Virus record (IMG/VR): IMGVR_UViG_2874945390_000001
Location: 1-13,756 of that record
Reading direction: 5' to 3' (one strand)
DNA: 13,756 nucleotides
DNA from: a virus
Taxonomy: Duplodnaviria > Heunggongvirae > Uroviricota > Caudoviricetes
This document shows positions 6,301 to 13,756 of the stretch, one piece after another. A program made the position numbers and the translations under genes. The notes beneath the pieces were generated by a model. The model worked only from the letters and a program-made list of their open reading frames with translations. It was not told where the DNA came from and searched no databases. The number at the start of each line of letters is the position of its first letter. Position 1 is the stretch's first letter.

Positions 6301-7911
6301 TTATAAAAACGCGTCGCACTCGTCTGTTGTTATTGCGTTAGTCTGCGTTACCCCCTTAACTTTCCGCGTAATATATTCATGTCCGTAAACTTTTGCGGCA
6401 GGCTTCATAGCCTTGCCAAAGTCATTTACGTTTAGCGGTTTGCTCCTGCCTGCGTATGCCATAAACGCCAGATAGACGCGGTAAAGGCTGTTCCTGGTCG
6501 TGTACTTCACTGAATCACCACCGCCACCCATCATCAGGCCGCGCGCTTCCTCCAGAAAATTCAGGAACTGGCAAAACTCAATAACCGGATCCGTCTGTTG
6601 CTTTATTGCCAGTGCTTCATCACCGTCACGCTGTTCCAGTAGTAAAGCCCGTGCCTTCTCAGGGTCGGTAAAATTCGCCAGCAATCGGCGGATAATAACG
6701 GGGATTTCAGCCGCAATCTTTTCCGGTAGCTCCCTGTCTTTTTCGGCCTCACTGACGATATTGTCGAAACGGAAAATCACGCGACGACGTGCCACACCTC
6801 CGGCCCGTTCGGTGAATATCATCGGGTTGTTGTCGGTCGCCAGCACCACCGCCCTGATTACCGCCGTGAAACGCTTTTCATATTTCGGGTTAATTTCCAC
6901 GGGGTCGCCGCCCGTGATTTTCTTGATGCCCGTTCCTTCGCCTGTATATTTCGGCTGGTCAGCCAGGACGATAAGACGACTCCCGACAACCTGCGCACGT
7001 CCACCAGCATCATCAAGCGATGTCATTTCAGCGCTTACCGTGTTCTGTTTCCCTGCCAGAAGGCTGGCTATGTGTGTGAATGTACTTTTACCGCTCCCGC
7101 CGTCTCCGGTGGCCTCAATAAACATCTGCCAGTCGTACCGGTTCGCCATAATCATGTAAAGCGCGGCACATATGCGCATCATCTTGCGCGGGTCTTTTCC
7201 GGCTGCGTGATCAAGCCATTTATGAAAGTTTGGCGCGTTGTCGCGGATATTCTCCCCTGGTGCTGGTGGCGTGTACTCAATGCCGTTGTGCGTGGTGATC
7301 CAGTTCTCCGGCGTGTGCGGGGAAAATTCCCCCGTTTTCAGGTTAAGCACACCATTAGTGAACGGTAGCAAATCACTGGACGGCTCGCCCATCGGGTCAG
7401 CAATAACTTTTAACGCTTCAACGGCGTTATTAATTGCCCGCTTGCTGAATGTGGCCCCGTGTTCTGAATAAACCGCCACCATTTCGCGGCTCAGTTCCAT
7501 TGTGCTGACCGGACACCATATCTCGCCGCGCCATACGTGAACGATTTCACTTTCCGGATGCACACAAACGCCATCAAATCGACCAGCAAGCATCTGTGCG
7601 CGCTCACTGTCTGCCATCTGCGAAAGTTGCGCCTTTTGCTTTACCGGAAGCTCAATGACCAGACCATCAGAAAGATTCTGGCGTTCACGGGCCAGATATT
7701 CGCGCCAGTTCTGCACCTCCTGGCCGTGCATACCCTCAAGATAAAAATTTGCATCCTGTACACCTGCCGCCGCCAGCTTCTGACCAATCGCCTTGATCAT
7801 TACAGGCTCAAGATGTCCGGCTCTGTATATGCGTGCTGATTTTCTGCCATCCGGCACAATTTGCAGATTATCCAGTTCGGATAGCTGCTGCTCTCCAAGC
7901 CACACAGGAGG
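6301..7911 (-). pseudogene. P4-family DNA primase/helicase, C-terminal 536 codons, separated from its 5' end by the IS insertion
   Basis: Walker A GDGGSGKST and downstream motifs typical of the P4 alpha / D5-type NTPase C-terminal domain. The frame is open upstream of the annotated GTG at 7905 and runs straight into the IS left end at 7912. Confidence 0.85.
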
Positions 7912-7975
7912 TGAGGTAGCCTGAGTTTAACGGACACTCCTTCCTGAAATAGAATGGCATCAGAAGGAGCTAATA

Positions 7976-8278
7976 ATGAGCAGAAAAACCCAACGTTACT
8001 CTAAAGAGTTCAAAGCCGAAGCTGTCAGAACGGTTCTTGAAAATCAACTTTCGATCAGTGAAGGCGCTTCCCGATTATCCCTTCCTGAAGGCACTTTAGG
8101 ACAATGGGTTACCGCCGCCAGAAAAGGGCTCGGTACTCCTGGTTCCCGCACGGTGGCTGAACTGGAATCTGAAATTCTGCAACTGCGTAAGGCGTTAAAT
8201 GAAGCTCGCCTTGAGCGAGATATATTAAAAAAAGCAACAGCGTATTTTGCACAGGAGTCGCTGAAAAATACGCGTTAA
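7976..8278 (+). CDS. IS3-family transposase OrfA (HTH), IS600-like
   Basis: 100 aa. MSRKTQRYSKEFKAEAVRTV...LERDILKKATAYFA is the typical IS3-family OrfA with a leucine-zipper C-terminus; GGAG RBS upstream. Confidence 0.9.
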   Translation: MSRKTQRYSKEFKAEAVRTVLENQLSISEGASRLSLPEGTLGQWVTAARKGLGTPGSRTVAELESEILQLRKALNEARLERDILKKATAYFAQESLKNTR

Positions 8279-9132
8279 TCGAACAATGGCGACAACAATT
8301 TCCCATTGAAGCGATGTGTCAGGTATTTGGTGTATCCAGGAGCGGTTATTACAACTGGGTACAGCATGAACCCTCAGACAGAAAACAAAGTGATGAGCGG
8401 CTAAAACTGGAGATTAAGGTGGCACATATCCGCACTCGCGAAACATATGGAACCCGGCGGCTCCAGACGGAGCTGGCAGAGAATGGCATCATCGTTGGTC
8501 GTGACCGACTGGCACGTCTTCGTAAGGAGCTAAGGCTACGCTGTAAGCAGAAACGCAAGTTCAGAGCGACTACGAACCCGAACCACAATCTGCCAGTTGC
8601 GCCAAATCTGCTGAACCAGACGTTCGCTCCTACAGCACCAAATCAGGTCTGGGTGGCGGACCTGACGTATGTTGCCACACAGGAGGGATGGTTGTACCTC
8701 GCTGGCATCAAAGATGTTTATACGTGCGAAATTGTCGGCTACGCCATGGGAGAGCGCATGACAAAAGAGCTGACAGGTAAAGCCCTGTTTATGGCGCTCA
8801 GGAGCCAGCGCCCACCTGCCGGGCTAATCCACCACTCTGATCGAGGTTCACAGTACTGCGCATACGATTACCGGGTCATACAGGAGCAGTTTGGTCTGAA
8901 AACATCAATGTCGCGTAAAGGTAACTGTTACGACAACGCTCCGATGGAAAGCTTCTGGGGAACGCTGAAAAATGAGAGCCTGAGCCACTATCGTTTTAAT
9001 AACCGGGATGAAGCCGTCTCAGTAATACGGGAATACATTGAGATTTTCTACAATCGTCAGCGTCGTCACTCTCGTCTGGGGAATATCTCCCCGGCAGCCT
9101 TCAGGGAAAAATATCATCAGATGGCTGCTTAA
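8227..9132 (+). CDS. IS3-family transposase OrfB (DDE integrase domain), expressed as an OrfAB fusion by -1 frameshifting
   Basis: The -1 frame is open from the A7 slippery site (8227-8233) through 9132. DDE-type motifs are present (...VWVADLTYV..., ...HSDRGSQY..., ...YDNAPMESFWGTLK...). The first ATG in this frame is at 8314. Confidence 0.85.
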   Translation, partial: KKSNSVFCTGVAEKYALIEQWRQQFPIEAMCQVFGVSRSGYYNWVQHEPSDRKQSDERLKLEIKVAHIRTRETYGTRRLQTELAENGIIVGRDRLARLRKELRLRCKQKRKFRATTNPNHNLPVAPNLLNQTFAPTAPNQVWVADLTYVATQEGWLYLAGIKDVYTCEIVGYAMGERMTKELTGKALFMALRSQRPPAGLIHHSDRGSQYCAYDYRVIQEQFGLKTSMSRKGNCYDNAPMESFWGTLKNESLSHYRFNNRDEAVSVIREYIEIFYNRQRRHSRLGNISPAAFREKYHQMAA

Positions 9133-9178
9133 AAAAAGAACAAATGGTAGTGTCCGCTATTGCCAGTACACCTCAAGG

Positions 9179-12143: not shown

Positions 12144-12166
12144 AAAAAAAGCGGCATTTCTGCCGC
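12144..12166 (-). terminator. Rho-independent terminator between the 83-aa ORF and alpA
   Basis: Plus strand A7 (12144-12150) then hairpin GCGGCA-TTTC-TGCCGC (12151-12166); on the minus strand the hairpin is followed by U7. Confidence 0.7.
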
Positions 12167-12177
12167 TTCCAGGATTG

Positions 12178-12429
12178 TTACCGCCATTTTTGGGGCCTGC
12201 CTCCGATCTTCATAGATGCCGGGCGTACGACCTTATCAATACTTACCGCCAGATTTCTGGAAGCGCCACGGGATACCAGAAAATCTACTACCTGTTTTTT
12301 TGATGGGGCCGTCGTTCTGTCCTCCGGATCGTAGGTTGACCAAAATTCATGCTGAACCATCAGGGCCAGTTGCAGCCCGTCGCAATTGCATCTGATATTT
12401 TTTTGCATCTTAACGGTTTCATGTTTCAC
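12178..12429 (-). CDS. Hypothetical protein (83 aa, or 76 aa from the internal ATG)
   Basis: ORF between the integrase and alpA, followed by a terminator. The annotated start is GTG; an internal ATG (MQKNIRCN...) is also possible. No family recognised. Confidence 0.4.
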   Translation of the reverse strand: MKHETVKMQKNIRCNCDGLQLALMVQHEFWSTYDPEDRTTAPSKKQVVDFLVSRGASRNLAVSIDKVVRPASMKIGGRPQKWR

Positions 12430-12506
12430 GGCCTTGTCGTTAAATTTGATGCAATTATACGATGGTTTTACATGGTTTTCGTAGTTTTTACTGGTTTTCT
12501 GTACAG

Positions 12507-13756
12507 CTACACGGCTCGGATACCCCTTTTACCACTGGCGAGGGTTACGCCCGTCGCCGCAGCCTCGACAAATTCGCCCCACCAGCGCATCAGCACGATG
12601 CGTTTTTCTATGTAGTTGCTCCGGTTGTATGCCCGTCTAACTTCGTTGGTGTCGACGTGGGCAAGTGCCGCCTCTATTACGTCCGGCTCGAATCCTTCCT
12701 CGTTCGCTGCTGTGCTGAATATGGCGCGTAATCCATGAGACACCAGCACGCCAGCGAATCCCATACGCCGCAATGCTGCGTTAGCGGTCTGGCTGTTCAT
12801 CGGCTGCTGTGGGTCTTTCAGACTTGGGAAAACGTAATTGCGGTGGTGGCTGATTGGTTTCATGGCCTCCAGCACCGCCATAGCCTGACCGGAAAGCGGG
12901 ATAACGTGATAACGTGATCCCTGCGCATCTTCATGCGTCCGGCAGGTATCGTCCATTGCTTCGCGTCCAGGTTGATTTCATCCCACCGCGTTGATGACGC
13001 TTCGGCGGGACGGGTTACGGTCAGTAACTGCCATTCAATCAGTAATCTGGTCTGCCGTTCTGTTGCCGATACTGATAAAGCCTGCATAAGCTCCGGCAGC
13101 TGTTCGGGGCGGATTGTTGGCATATGTTTTTTTACAGGTGAGGGAAACGCCTTACGCACATTCATAGCCGGATTGGCATCAATCAGCCCACTGTTGGCGG
13201 CGTAATCCATTACCTCATTAACGCGCTGTAAAACCCGCTTGAGTGTTTCCAGGTTGCCGCGCTCCTTGATGGGTGTAAGCACCTCAACGAACCTTCGGGC
13301 GGTGAGGGTATCTATTGGCGTGTTGCCGATGAACGGGAATACATATTTATCCAGCGAACGCCAGATATCTTTAATCGTGTTGGGGGCCAGATTCTGGCTG
13401 ATTTTCACCTGGTACCATGCCGCCGCCACATTTTCGAACGTGTTCCCTTGTCTTCGGGCCTCTGTCTCTCTTTTTTGCCTCTCGTGGTCCTGCGGGTCAG
13501 TTCCGGCACGAATTAACGCCCTGTACTCGCTACGGCGTTTTCTGGCATCAGCCAGGGAAACATCTTCAAGCGATCCAAAACTCAGCAATATTCTTTTTTT
13601 GTCCGATGGTCGGTAGTAGGAAAATCTCCAGAGTTTTGATCCAGACGGTTTGACCAGGAGAAAAAGCCCTCCGCCGTCCTGCAGGGTGTACTCCTTTTGC
13701 GCTGGTCTGGCTGCTTTGATCTGCACTGTGGTTAATGAGTGTGTTTTTCTCGCCAT
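12507..13756 (-). pseudogene. int: P4-type tyrosine integrase, disrupted by a frameshift (8-bp tandem duplication)
   Basis: N-terminal ORF 12860..13756 has the P4-integrase arm-binding N-terminus (...IKAARPAQKEYTLQDGGGLFLLVKPSGSKLWRFSYY...). The C-terminal catalytic part is in another frame (12507..12956: ...HGLRAIFSTAANE...LAHV...VRRAYNRSNY...). The ATG sits on the last bases of the window, so the true start may lie beyond it. Confidence 0.85.
12901..12916. repeat. 8-bp tandem duplication (ATAACGTG x2) causing the integrase frameshift
   Basis: Sequence is gATAACGTGATAACGTGatcc. Removing one copy restores a continuous ...RMKMRRDHVIPLSGQAMAVLEAMKPI... reading frame. Confidence 0.8.

What the first reader, a model, noticed from the sequence alone, without database searches (positions are those of the whole stretch)
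6301..13756. Mosaic architecture: P4-type integrase/AlpA/primase joined to a lambda-type capsid and cos module
The integrase, AlpA and primase/helicase with iteron origin are the hallmark core of P4-like satellites and PICIs. The structural and packaging end of the same unit is lambdoid (gpE/gpD-like proteins and cos). All these genes are co-oriented on the minus strand. The combination is what is expected of a capsid-forming phage satellite and is worth classifying.
Basis: inference. Interest (0 to 1): 0.7.

Follow-up and report, generated by a model that had tools for sequence, protein, structure and literature searches.

The report
Decayed EcCICFT073-type phage satellite (PICI)
This is an insertion-sequence-riddled, probably immobile copy of a well-known family of E. 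coli/Shigella phage satellites (EcCICFT073-type PICIs), which always pair a P4-like integrase/regulator/primase with lambda-like capsid genes and a cos site, so it is ordinary and is not a new capsid-forming satellite.

Summary
The minus strand carries a P4-family integrase, an AlpA/Vis-like regulator and a D5/P4-alpha-type primase-helicase with an iteron origin. It also carries gpE-like and gpD-like capsid genes and a lambda-type cos site, but these lie at 1-2706, outside the stated 6301-13756.

The window is 100% identical to Shigella boydii CP026836.1. The island lies between tRNA-Pro (proL) and yejO and has no tail, lysis, portal, protease or terL genes. It is colinear with EcCICFT073, the prototype Gram-negative cos PICI, at 89-96% nucleotide identity. 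EcCICFT073's capsid (c1499) and decoration (c1500) genes were described in 2018. The mosaic is therefore the known "PICI type A" layout, not a cfPICI.

This copy is decayed:
- the integrase has an 8-bp duplication that shifts the frame;
- IS600 splits the primase;
- a truncated IS66-family element deleted about 200 bp;
- rpp/terS is reduced to 24 codons.

Modest extras:
- a 327-bp cosQ-cosN-cosB-terS' patch is 98.5% identical to an intact lambdoid prophage;
- a P4-type isrK/C4 RNA immunity module is present, which EcCICFT073 lacks;
- a third capsid-module gene resembles the Nu3 scaffold tail of gpC;
- the capsid genes are satellite-specific and under purifying selection, and their function is still unknown.

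The parts
12507..13756 (-). Tyrosine integrase pseudogene (P4/CP4-57-type, with an arm-binding N-terminal domain). An 8-bp tandem duplication (ATCACGTT x2; extra copy at 12911-12918) shifts the frame.
   Evidence: Pfam domains. Alignment to the intact 413-aa Nissle orthologue shows one 8-bp insertion and 7 substitutions. 33% identical to P4 Int.
12178..12429 (-). Small conserved hypothetical gene (76-83 aa) between int and alpA.
   Evidence: Annotated as a 231-bp hypothetical gene in relatives. No family hit.
11825..12031 (-). AlpA/Vis-family regulator/excisionase (68 aa).
   Evidence: The identical protein is encoded in Nissle and many other genomes.
11242..11439 (+). YlcI/YnfO-family small gene, divergently oriented.
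   Evidence: NCBIfam NF041551 at 5.7e-15; phrog_949.
10284..10951 (-). P4-type RNA immunity module: isrK/seqA-like 10875-10951, C4 (CI RNA) 10763-10850, a1b1 target 10439-10488, second C4 10284-10371.
   Evidence: Rfam hits above gathering score. P4 has the same isrK-then-C4 order. Present in L002 and L008; absent from EcCICFT073, Nissle and L012-L015.
9319..10099 (-). Three small conserved genes upstream of the primase: 88 aa, 77 aa and a DUF4222 protein of 99 aa.
   Evidence: PHROG hits. Colinear with EcCICFT073.
9176..9322 (-). Primase-helicase, 5' fragment (first 49 codons).
   Evidence: Removing IS600 and one copy of the target duplication restores a 584-aa ORF.
7912..9175 (+). IS3-family element read as IS600 (1264 bp) inserted in the primase, with a 3-bp target duplication AGG.
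   Evidence: Inverted-repeat ends TGAGGT... are seen in the sequence. The name IS600 is from my recollection of the transposase sequence.
6301..7911 (-). Primase-helicase, 3' fragment (D5_N, DUF5906/SF3 helicase, Pox_D5 C-terminus).
   Evidence: The restored gene is 94.5% amino-acid identical to the EcCICFT073 primase. 39.5% identical to P4 alpha residues 324-762.
6048..6290 (.). Replication origin: about 13 iterons (R)TCTACC / GGTAGA(Y) in both orientations, flanking an AT-rich stretch.
   Evidence: This is the position PMC6092414 assigns to PICI origins, immediately 3' of the replication initiator gene.
3380..5971 (+). IS66-family element remnant (tnpA, tnpB, frameshifted tnpC). Only the left inverted repeat is present; the right end is truncated. 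About 200 bp of satellite DNA (most of the small gene upstream of ssb) is missing.
2944..3354 (-). Single-strand DNA-binding protein.
   Evidence: Pfam SSB. 99% amino-acid identical to the EcCICFT073 protein.
2500..2706 (-). Conserved 68-aa protein that opens the capsid operon; function unknown.
   Evidence: phrog_3255. No similarity to lambda gpW. dN/dS 0.12-0.16 against five relatives and 0.31 against the divergent L015 copy.
1445..2500 (-). gpE-like major capsid protein (351 aa, intact).
   Evidence: PDB 3BQW matches at E 7e-216. Best match in any phage record is 46.5% identity. dN/dS 0.14-0.21.
1098..1433 (-). gpD-like head decoration protein (111 aa, intact).
672..1085 (-). 137-aa protein homologous to the C-terminal (Nu3/scaffold-region) repeat of lambdoid gpC protease-scaffold proteins.
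   Evidence: phrog_53 positions 474-566 of 583, E 1e-9. BLASTP 2e-11 to residues 416-484 of a lambdoid prophage gpC homologue. hhalign probability 96%. The repeat maps into lambda Nu3.
464..640 (-). cos site: cosQ-like GGGTCCTTCCGG at 628-639; cosN GGGCGGGAGCGG at 599-610; CTATTTATGAAAATTTT at 571-587; putative cosB with three CCGGACAT/ATGTCCGG repeats at 553-560, 494-501 and 464-471.
   Evidence: Window 314-640 is 98.5% identical (322 of 327, no gaps) to the cos-terS region of an intact lambdoid prophage.
314..385 (-). Remnant (24 codons) of a phage-type small terminase gene, at the position held by rppA in EcCICFT073.
1..300 (-). Conserved 99-aa protein that ends the satellite's gene set (phrog_1561); function unknown.

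Best explanation
The window is almost the whole of a classical Gram-negative cos-type phage-inducible chromosomal island (PICI) of the EcCICFT073 family. It is integrated at the 3' end of tRNA-Pro(GGG) proL in Shigella boydii and is now a degraded, probably immobile copy.

How intact relatives work. The first three steps and the use of the helper's terminase at cos were shown for EcCICFT073 in PMC6092414 and PMC6739421 and are inferred here by homology.
1. A lambdoid helper phage triggers AlpA-dependent induction.
2. Int excises the island at the tRNA att site.
3. The primase-helicase fires the iteron origin just 3' of its gene.
4. The helper's terminase cuts the resulting concatemers at the island's lambda-type cos.
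5. The DNA is packaged into helper-built heads with helper tails.

The island's gpE-like, gpD-like and Nu3-like genes are conserved and under purifying selection. Their role is not established.

This sub-lineage differs from EcCICFT073 in two ways.
- Repression is probably P4-like: a C4/CI antisense RNA with seqA/isrK and a1b1 target sites would terminate the replication operon (inferred).
- The Rpp redirecting protein and its private cosB are replaced by a 327-bp copy of a helper phage's own cosQ-cosN-cosB-terS'. Packaging would therefore rely on direct recognition by that phage's TerS, as in cosmids or SaPIbov5 (inferred).

In this copy the integrase is frameshifted, the primase is split by IS600, and an IS66-family remnant with an adjacent deletion lies between ori and ssb. 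Autonomous excision and replication should therefore be lost (inferred).
For: Identity and context:
- The window is 100% identical to S. boydii CP026836.1.
- The island runs from the proL 3' end to a partial repeat next to yejO. E. coli K-12 has the empty site.
- Every called gene in the island is accounted for. There is no tail, lysis, portal, protease or terL gene.

Relationship to EcCICFT073:
- Colinear at 89-96% nucleotide identity across the capsid module, ssb, primase and small genes.
- Published EcCICFT073 features match: capsid c1499, decoration c1500, rppA c1503, two cos sites, and an origin 3' of the replication gene.

Individual features:
- Iterons.
- cos.
- Decay lesions.
- C4 and isrK RNAs (the P4 mechanism is summarised in PMC4825925).
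- Purifying selection on the capsid genes.
- The capsid module is present in 598 of 5426 complete E. coli genomes.
Against: - Nothing here was tested for mobility. All mechanistic steps are carried over from EcCICFT073, P4 and lambda by homology.
- The integrase differs from that of EcCICFT073 (24% identity), and so does the att site.
- The fifth PICI core component (terS/Rpp) is only a 24-codon stub in this copy.
- Losing Rpp might mean the sub-lineage was already non-functional before the IS hits. The two closest E. coli relatives also have broken integrases.
Confidence: 0.9

Rival explanations
1. It is a capsid-forming PICI (cfPICI): a satellite that builds its own small capsids and packages itself, stealing only tails.
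For: - It encodes a full-length major capsid protein, a decoration protein and a scaffold-like protein.
- These genes are under purifying selection and are clearly separate from any phage lineage.
- The identical AlpA gene, with an integrase gene of the same size and domain make-up beside it, is found joined to a real cfPICI module at the same att site in L014.
Against: - There is no protease, portal, head-tail adaptor or connector, HNH, terS or terL in the att-bounded island or in intact relatives. These define cfPICIs.
- The cfPICI at the same site (L014) uses a Pfam Phage_capsid (PF05065) capsid protein with an S78 protease. This element uses a Phage_cap_E protein.
- EcCICFT073 DNA was packaged at phage size, and deleting c1499 or c1500 did not relieve interference with lambda.
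Confidence: 0.04
2. It is the stump of a defective lambdoid prophage that lost most genes and happens to sit next to a P4-like island.
For: - It has gpE-, gpD- and Nu3-like genes.
- Its cos patch is 98.5% identical to that of an intact lambdoid prophage.
- The genome is heavily rearranged by IS elements.
Against: - The best capsid-protein match among 50,697 phage records is 46.5% identity.
- The gene order E-D-Nu3-like-cos differs from lambda's cos-Nu1-A-W-B-C/Nu3-D-E.
- The same compact 9.5-11 kb, att-bounded layout recurs in about 600 E. coli genomes and at different att sites.
- EcCICFT073, which has this layout, is experimentally mobilised as a unit.
Confidence: 0.03
3. It is a P4-like satellite that exploits a P2-type helper.
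For: - Int (33%), Vis/AlpA (31%) and the alpha helicase part (39.5%) are P4 homologues.
- The isrK/seqA-then-C4/CI RNA module is laid out as in P4.
Against: - There is no psu, sid, delta or epsilon homologue (tblastn at E<=0.01).
- There is no P4/P2-type cos, even allowing 5 mismatches in 19 nt.
- cos is lambda-type.
- Only 3 of the 7 SatelliteFinder P4 core components are present. Accepted P4-like types lack at most two.
Confidence: 0.03

Closest known systems
EcCICFT073 (E. coli CFT073; prototype Gram-negative cos PICI; Fillol-Salom et al. 2018 PMC6092414 and 2019 PMC6739421)
   Same: - Same gene order: int, alpA, small genes, DUF4222, primase, iteron ori, small ORF, ssb, 68-aa gene, gpE-like (c1499), gpD-like (c1500), 137-aa gene, cos, 93-99-aa gene.
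- 89-96% nucleotide identity across the capsid, ssb and primase modules.
- Lambda-like cosQ and cosN context.
   Different: - Different integrase (24% identity) and att site: proL here; in CFT073 the island lies between roxA and phoQ.
- No rppA and no second inverted cos. Instead there is a helper-type cosB and a terS stub, and cosN is GGGCGGGAGCGG rather than GGGCGGCGACCT.
- A P4-type isrK/C4 RNA module that EcCICFT073 lacks.
- This copy is disrupted by two IS elements and a frameshift.
PICI 'Type A' of SatelliteFinder (de Sousa et al. 2023, PMC10085698)
   Same: Integrase, AlpA-type regulator, primase-replicase and a capsid morphogenesis gene in the conserved order. No tail, holin, portal or connector genes. 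Size is near the 9.5 kb median once the IS elements are removed.
   Different: The terS component is only a 24-codon remnant, so this copy would probably score as Type B. I could not run the classifier.
cfPICI EcCIEDL933 (Alqurainy et al., bioRxiv 10.1101/2022.09.08.507074)
   Same: The paper describes its int, alpA and rep genes as identical to those of EcCICFT073 and EcCIED1a. A cfPICI carrying the identical AlpA protein and a same-sized integrase gene occupies the same proL site in L014. Both kinds of element encode a capsid protein.
   Different: cfPICIs add a protease, portal, head-tail connectors, HNH, terS and terL. The L014 example uses a Pfam Phage_capsid (PF05065) capsid protein. None of these is present here.
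Satellite phage P4
   Same: Homologous Int, Vis/AlpA and alpha (helicase and ori-binding part). The isrK/seqA-C4/CI RNA immunity module sits upstream of the replication operon. An iteron-type origin lies next to the replicase gene.
   Different: No sid, psu, delta or epsilon. No counterpart of the first 323 residues of alpha. Lambda-type rather than P2-type cos. It carries its own gpE/gpD homologues instead of the Sid external scaffold.
SaPIbov5 (cos SaPI with the capsid-protein homologue Ccm, as summarised in PMC6092414)
   Same: A satellite that carries its helper's cos site and encodes a homologue of the helper's major capsid protein.
   Different: A Gram-positive element whose genes are unrelated in sequence. 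Ccm has been shown to make small capsids, whereas no such activity was seen for EcCICFT073 with lambda.

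Membership tests
Classical cos PICI (EcCICFT073 family / SatelliteFinder PICI) | Integrase at one end, adjacent to a specific att site | tested here: met
   The int gene starts 218 bp from tRNA-Pro proL. The island is bounded by the tRNA 3' end and a partial repeat, and K-12 has the empty site. The gene is frameshifted.
Classical cos PICI (EcCICFT073 family / SatelliteFinder PICI) | AlpA-type regulator downstream of int | tested here: met
   Weak Pfam hit (E 0.0035, below threshold). Supported by PHROG at 5.5e-7, by EcCICFT073 AlpA at 2e-7 and by P4 Vis at 2e-5.
Classical cos PICI (EcCICFT073 family / SatelliteFinder PICI) | Primase-replicase with the origin immediately 3' of the gene | tested here: met
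   The restored 584-aa ORF is 94.5% identical to the EcCICFT073 primase. The iteron cluster is at 6048-6290. The gene is split by IS600.
Classical cos PICI (EcCICFT073 family / SatelliteFinder PICI) | Capsid morphogenesis gene (gpE-like, as c1499) | tested here: met
   Intact 351-aa Phage_cap_E protein, 90% identical to the CFT073 orthologue.
Classical cos PICI (EcCICFT073 family / SatelliteFinder PICI) | Small-terminase-like packaging specificity gene (TerS/Rpp) | tested here: not met
   Only 24 codons of a phage-type terS remain. Relatives carry rppA (CFT073, L015) or a Nu1-type gene (Nissle, L013). SatelliteFinder accepts four of five components as Type B.
Classical cos PICI (EcCICFT073 family / SatelliteFinder PICI) | Lambda-type cos site (cosQ, cosN) | tested here: met
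   There is one site, of a variant cosN type shared with an intact lambdoid prophage.
Classical cos PICI (EcCICFT073 family / SatelliteFinder PICI) | No tail, holin, portal or head-tail connector genes; size about 9-15 kb | tested here: met
   Complete gene list of the island and both flanks. About 15.2 kb including about 3.9 kb of IS DNA.
Classical cos PICI (EcCICFT073 family / SatelliteFinder PICI) | Helper-phage-dependent induction, packaging and high-frequency transfer | not testable with these tools
   Shown for EcCICFT073 only. This copy is predicted to be defective.
cfPICI | Own protease, portal and head-tail adaptor/connector alongside the capsid gene | tested here: not met
   Absent from the island and from intact relatives. 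Compare the true cfPICI L014.
cfPICI | Own HNH, terS and terL packaging genes | tested here: not met
   None is present; only a terS stub remains.
P4-like satellite | psu-delta-sid capsid-size/transactivation operon and epsilon | tested here: not met
   tblastn of all P4 proteins against the window found no hit at E<=0.01.
P4-like satellite | alpha primase-helicase, integrase and AlpA/Vis | tested here: met
   Homologues at 31-40% identity. The alpha match covers residues 324-762 only.
P4-like satellite | P2/P4-type 19-nt cos | tested here: not met
   No match with up to 5 mismatches.
Lambdoid prophage (defective) | Tail, lysis, terL and portal genes, or their remnants, inside the same att-bounded unit | tested here: not met
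   The capsid protein is at most 46.5% identical to that of any deposited phage.

The most novel reading that the evidence does not exclude
The conserved four-gene block may be a working partial capsid kit. The block is the 68-aa protein, the gpE-like coat, the gpD-like cement and the Nu3-like scaffold tail, and it is found in about 11% of complete E. coli genomes. With the right native lambdoid helper, but not lambda, it might co-assemble on the helper's portal and protease to build or reshape satellite-specific heads. That would be an intermediate between capsid-remodelling PICIs and fully capsid-forming cfPICIs. A lesser variant is that sub-lineages such as this one swapped Rpp-based redirection for direct capture of the helper's cosB.
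Probability: 0.2. Interest if true: 0.6.

Novelty: new member of a known kind. Interest (0 to 1): 0.25.

Why it matters
As a classification result it matters little. The mosaic of a P4-like front end and a lambda-like capsid/cos back end is the published signature of EcCICFT073-type PICIs, and this Shigella boydii copy is a fossil.

Three by-products could interest satellite specialists.
1. The gpE/gpD/Nu3-like module is satellite-specific: at most 46.5% identical to any deposited phage capsid protein, with dN/dS around 0.15-0.3. It survives intact even in a wrecked element, yet the only published test (with lambda) gave it no role. What it does is open and testable.
2. A 327-bp patch that is 98.5% identical to a helper phage's cos-terS region sits where Rpp and its private cosB sit in EcCICFT073. 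This shows that packaging specificity in these satellites can be changed by recombination at cos.
3. A P4-type antisense-RNA immunity module occurs in some members of a PICI family that is usually described as AlpA-controlled.

Tried and rejected
- I pasted a lambda sequence from memory. I discarded it as unreliable and fetched NC_001416 instead.
- PDB sequence searches found nothing meaningful for the terS stub or for the 137-aa protein.
- Lambda gpW against the 68-aa protein (same length, 68 aa): no similarity.
- Lambda gpC/Nu3 against the 137-aa protein directly: not significant. The link appears only through a lambdoid prophage gpC homologue with extra repeats.
- NCBIfam and PADLOC found no family or defence hits for the small ORFs, apart from YlcI/YnfO.
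- The long minus-strand ORFs at 10059-11173 and 11133-11810 are treated as spurious or non-coding. The first region is covered by the C4, isrK and a1b1 RNA matches. The second has no family hit and overlaps ylcI.
- I considered that cosN GGGCGGGAGCGG was a decayed lambda cosN. I rejected this because an intact lambdoid prophage has the identical site.
- I did not use the genome contigs or metagenome scans. The GTDB species representatives were unlikely to include this strain, and exact-protein look-ups found the source genome instead.
- Literature searches found no paper assigning a function to the gpE/gpD genes of classical E. coli PICIs.

Full report
**1. What is in the window**

ORF listing and family searches give one co-oriented gene set on the minus strand, read here from 13756 down to 1:

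- a tyrosine integrase with an arm-binding domain (12507-13756);
- a small hypothetical gene;
- an AlpA/Vis-like regulator (11825-12031);
- a divergent ylcI/ynfO gene on the plus strand (11242-11439);
- a GC-rich region that Rfam resolves into isrK, C4, an a1b1 target and a second C4 RNA (10284-10951);
- three small genes, including a DUF4222 protein (9319-10099);
- a D5_N/DUF5906/Pox_D5 primase-helicase (6301-7911 plus 9176-9322);
- an iteron field (6048-6290);
- ssb (2944-3354);
- a 68-aa gene (2500-2706);
- a gpE-like major capsid protein (1445-2500);
- a gpD-like decoration protein (1098-1433);
- a 137-aa protein (672-1085);
- a cos site (about 464-640);
- a 24-codon terS stub (314-385);
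- a 99-aa gene (1-300).

Two insertion sequences on the plus strand interrupt this set. An IS3-family element that I read as IS600 lies at 7912-9175. An IS66-family remnant lies at about 3380-5971. There is no tRNA gene inside the window.

**2. Checking the stated observation**

- Iterons are highly non-random. All 10 matches to RTCTACC in 13.8 kb fall within 6054-6285, against 1.5 expected, and no shuffle out of 200 reached 10. Repeat analysis shows about 13 copies in both orientations around an AT-rich core.
- The capsid protein is 43% identical to lambda gpE over its full length.
- The decoration protein is 38% identical to gpD.
- The cos site aligns with lambda cos through cosQ, cosN and the CTATTTATGAAAATTTT segment.
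- P4 homology is real for Int (33%), alpha residues 324-762 (39.5%) and orf88/Vis (31%).

Three corrections apply.

- The capsid/cos half lies outside the coordinates given.
- The integrase carries an 8-bp tandem duplication (ATCACGTT twice) that shifts the frame.
- The primase is split by IS600. Removing the IS and one copy of its 3-bp target duplication restores a 584-aa ORF.

**3. Source and boundaries**

Exact-protein look-ups place the window in Shigella boydii CP026836.1, with 0 mismatches over the 10,897 bases compared directly with L016; the far end of the window was located exactly in L009 (species).

- tRNA-Pro(GGG) proL lies 218 bp beyond position 13756, next to yejM.
- On the other side the island continues about 1.24 kb past position 1 with no convincing gene. 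It ends at a partial repeat of the tRNA 3' end, next to yejO and narP.
- E. coli K-12 has proL directly next to yejO, which is the empty site.
- Nine-base repeats AGTTATACG occur four times just upstream of int and twice near the far end (one of those two with a mismatch). They are probably arm-type integrase sites (inference).
- The att-bounded unit is about 15.2 kb, of which about 3.9 kb is IS DNA. It holds no tail, lysis, portal, protease or terL gene.

**4. What it is**

The window is colinear with EcCICFT073 in E. coli CFT073.

- The capsid module is 89% identical at nucleotide level, ssb 96%, the primase 94% and the small genes 91%.
- Gene lengths are the same and the capsid genes align without gaps.

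Fillol-Salom et al. 2018 (PMC6092414) described EcCICFT073 as a PICI with int, alpA, pri-rep and an origin 3' of the replication gene. They also reported a putative capsid protein (c1499), a head decoration protein (c1500) and lambda-like cos sites. The 2019 paper (PMC6739421) added RppA (c1503), which binds the helper TerS and redirects packaging to the island's private cosB.

SatelliteFinder (PMC10085698) lists capsid morphogenesis as one of five PICI core components. [quoted passage not shown]

Intact relatives of the window's island sit at the same proL site in E. coli Nissle 1917 and many other strains, as 9.5-11 kb units with the same gene order. The "mosaic" is therefore the defining layout of a known family.

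**5. Why it is not a cfPICI, a P4-like element or a prophage stump**

- cfPICI. These elements are defined by capsid, protease, portal, head-tail connectors, HNH, terS and terL. All but the capsid gene are missing here and in intact relatives. One genome (L014) has a true cfPICI at proL with the identical AlpA protein and a same-sized, same-domain integrase gene. It carries a Pfam Phage_capsid (PF05065) capsid protein, an S78 protease, a portal, connectors, HNH and a terminase gene. The difference is thus visible directly. L014 also shows that the front end recombines freely with different back ends. The cfPICI paper already made this point.
- P4-like. There is no sid, psu, delta or epsilon and no P2-type cos.
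- Defective lambdoid prophage. The capsid protein is at most 46.5% identical to anything in 50,697 phage records. The gene order also differs from lambda.

**6. State of this copy**

There are four lesions.

1. The integrase is frameshifted.
2. IS600 sits in the primase.
3. An IS66-family element has only its left inverted repeat and a frameshifted, truncated tnpC. Next to it, about 200 bp is missing, which removes most of the small gene upstream of ssb.
4. Only 24 codons remain at the terS/rpp position.

The same integrase frameshift is present in other sequencing runs. The two closest E. coli relatives, an O121 strain and FDAARGOS_943, share the terS stub but have different lesions: IS21 in int in both, and IS110 in the O121 primase. 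The loss of rpp/terS therefore predates the later, independent decay. I infer that this copy can no longer excise or replicate on its own.

**7. The cos region**

In EcCICFT073 two cos sites in inverted orientation flank rppA. The window has a single cos.

Window 314-640 is 98.5% identical (322 of 327 bases, no gaps) to a lambdoid prophage in E. coli CFSAN029787. The matching prophage region covers cosQ, cosN, cosB and the first 24 codons of terS. The prophage carries terS, terL, head-tail joining, portal, protease, decoration and capsid genes immediately downstream, although its portal gene and several tail genes are annotated as frameshifted.

The cosN variant GGGCGGGAGCGG is therefore a genuine alternative cos type, not a decayed lambda cosN. 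DNA of this cos/terS type occurs in 1746 of 5426 complete E. coli genomes. Three CCGGACAT/ATGTCCGG repeats in the patch are candidate TerS-binding R sites (inference).

The most economical reading is recombination at cos between satellite and helper. That event replaced Rpp and the private cosB with the helper's own packaging signal. Among relatives the cos-rpp interval is also inverted or partly deleted (L002), so this is a recombination hot spot.

**8. Regulation**

The isrK (seqA-like), C4 (CI RNA), a1b1 and second C4 matches all exceed Rfam gathering scores. They stand in the same order relative to Vis/AlpA and the replicase operon as in P4.

PMC4825925 summarises the P4 mechanism. CI RNA pairs with seqA and seqC and causes premature termination ahead of the replication genes.

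The module is present in L002 and L008. It is absent from EcCICFT073, Nissle and L012-L015. I infer P4-style RNA immunity for this sub-lineage. This was not tested.

**9. The capsid module**

- The 137-aa protein matches the C-terminal part of the PHROG "head maturation protease" family (positions 474-566 of 583).
- It also matches residues 416-484 of a lambdoid gpC homologue (E 2e-11; hhalign probability 96%).
- That segment is one of three tandem copies of a motif. Lambda has a single copy, inside Nu3.
- I therefore read the protein as scaffold-related. PGAP once named it "head-tail connector", and I found no support for that name.

The four genes show purifying selection comparable to the primase (0.11-0.19 for the full-length comparisons):

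| Gene | dN/dS against relatives |
|---|---|
| 68-aa protein | 0.12-0.16 (0.31 against the divergent L015 copy) |
| gpE-like capsid protein | 0.14-0.21 |
| gpD-like decoration protein | 0.19-0.29 |
| 137-aa protein | 0.22-0.33 |

- The block is present, almost always full length, in 598 of 5426 complete E. coli genomes.
- A crystal structure of a near-identical protein exists: PDB 3BQW, "putative capsid protein of prophage". From memory it is the CFT073 protein.
- The published tests found no role with lambda. Packaged DNA was phage-sized, and deleting c1499 or c1500 did not relieve interference.
- I found no later paper that resolves the function.

**10. Verdict**

- Observation: confirmed, with corrected coordinates and lesions.
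- Interpretation: partly supported. It is a satellite, but not a capsid-forming one.
- Novelty: a new, decayed member of a known kind.
- Interest: low. There are three small leads: capture of the helper's cos, P4-type RNA immunity in a PICI, and the conserved capsid kit whose function remains unexplained.

Noticed in passing
window 10284-10951 (-): Rfam finds isrK, C4, an a1b1 target and a second C4 antisense RNA, laid out as in the P4 immunity region. Two tandem C4 copies are unusual. The module is present in only some members of this PICI family: L002 and L008 have it, while EcCICFT073, Nissle and L012-L015 do not. The long ORFs called here, annotated elsewhere as 'Icd-like' or 'ash family', are probably not coding.
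   Followed up: partly
window 12903-12926 (-): The integrase is inactivated by an exact 8-bp tandem duplication (ATCACGTT ATCACGTT). Eight bp is, from memory, the target-duplication size of IS66-family elements, one of which sits in this island. It could be an excision footprint or replication slippage.
   Followed up: no
window 314-640 (-); L007 14001-14327: A 327-bp patch is 98.5% identical to the cosQ-cosN-cosB-terS 5' region of a lambdoid prophage, inside a satellite whose capsid protein is only about 45% identical to that phage's. In the E. coli relatives L008 and L020 the switch from satellite-type to phage-type sequence falls right at cosN. This suggests recombination or end-joining at cos.
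   Followed up: partly
L004 15529-15592 and 16276-16340 (EcCICFT073); L002 7551-8110: The two cos sites of EcCICFT073 are inverted repeats flanking rppA. In strain S1-CAM-02-A the segment between them is rearranged and rppA is reduced to fragments. The cos-rpp interval is therefore structurally unstable across the family.
   Followed up: partly
L014 8263-20207; also L012, L013, L015: The identical 68-aa AlpA protein, with a 413-aa integrase gene of the same domain make-up beside it at proL, is joined in different genomes to different back ends. These are a D5-type primase or an AAA_25 replicase, combined with either the gpE/gpD PICI module or a complete cfPICI module (Phage_capsid PF05065 capsid, S78 protease, portal, connectors, HNH, terminase).
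   Followed up: partly
window 3380-5971 (+): The IS66-family element has tnpA, tnpB and a frameshifted tnpC (4540-5544 and 5541-6038). It has no right inverted repeat. About 200 bp of satellite DNA is deleted at its truncated end.
   Followed up: partly
L016 9913-9975 and L009 about 13650-13670 (just outside the window at both ends): AGTTATACG repeats occur four times, as two inverted pairs, between proL and int, and twice near the far att end (one copy there has a mismatch). They are likely arm-type integrase binding sites.
   Followed up: partly
L009 12501-13740 (beyond window position 1): About 1.24 kb of island DNA between the last gene and the far att end has no convincing ORF or family hit. 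Other PICIs carry accessory or defence genes in this position.
   Followed up: no
L020 14362-14433; L008 18747-18818: In the closest E. coli relatives a second cos-like fragment, 88% identical to window 592-665, lies between the 68-aa gene and ssb, so the capsid module there is bracketed by cos-like sequences. The window's shorter spacer (2706-2944) lacks it.
   Followed up: no
window 1445-2500 (-): PDB entry 3BQW, 'putative capsid protein of prophage' (351 residues), matches this protein at E 7e-216. A crystal structure of the satellite's gpE-like protein therefore already exists.
   Followed up: partly
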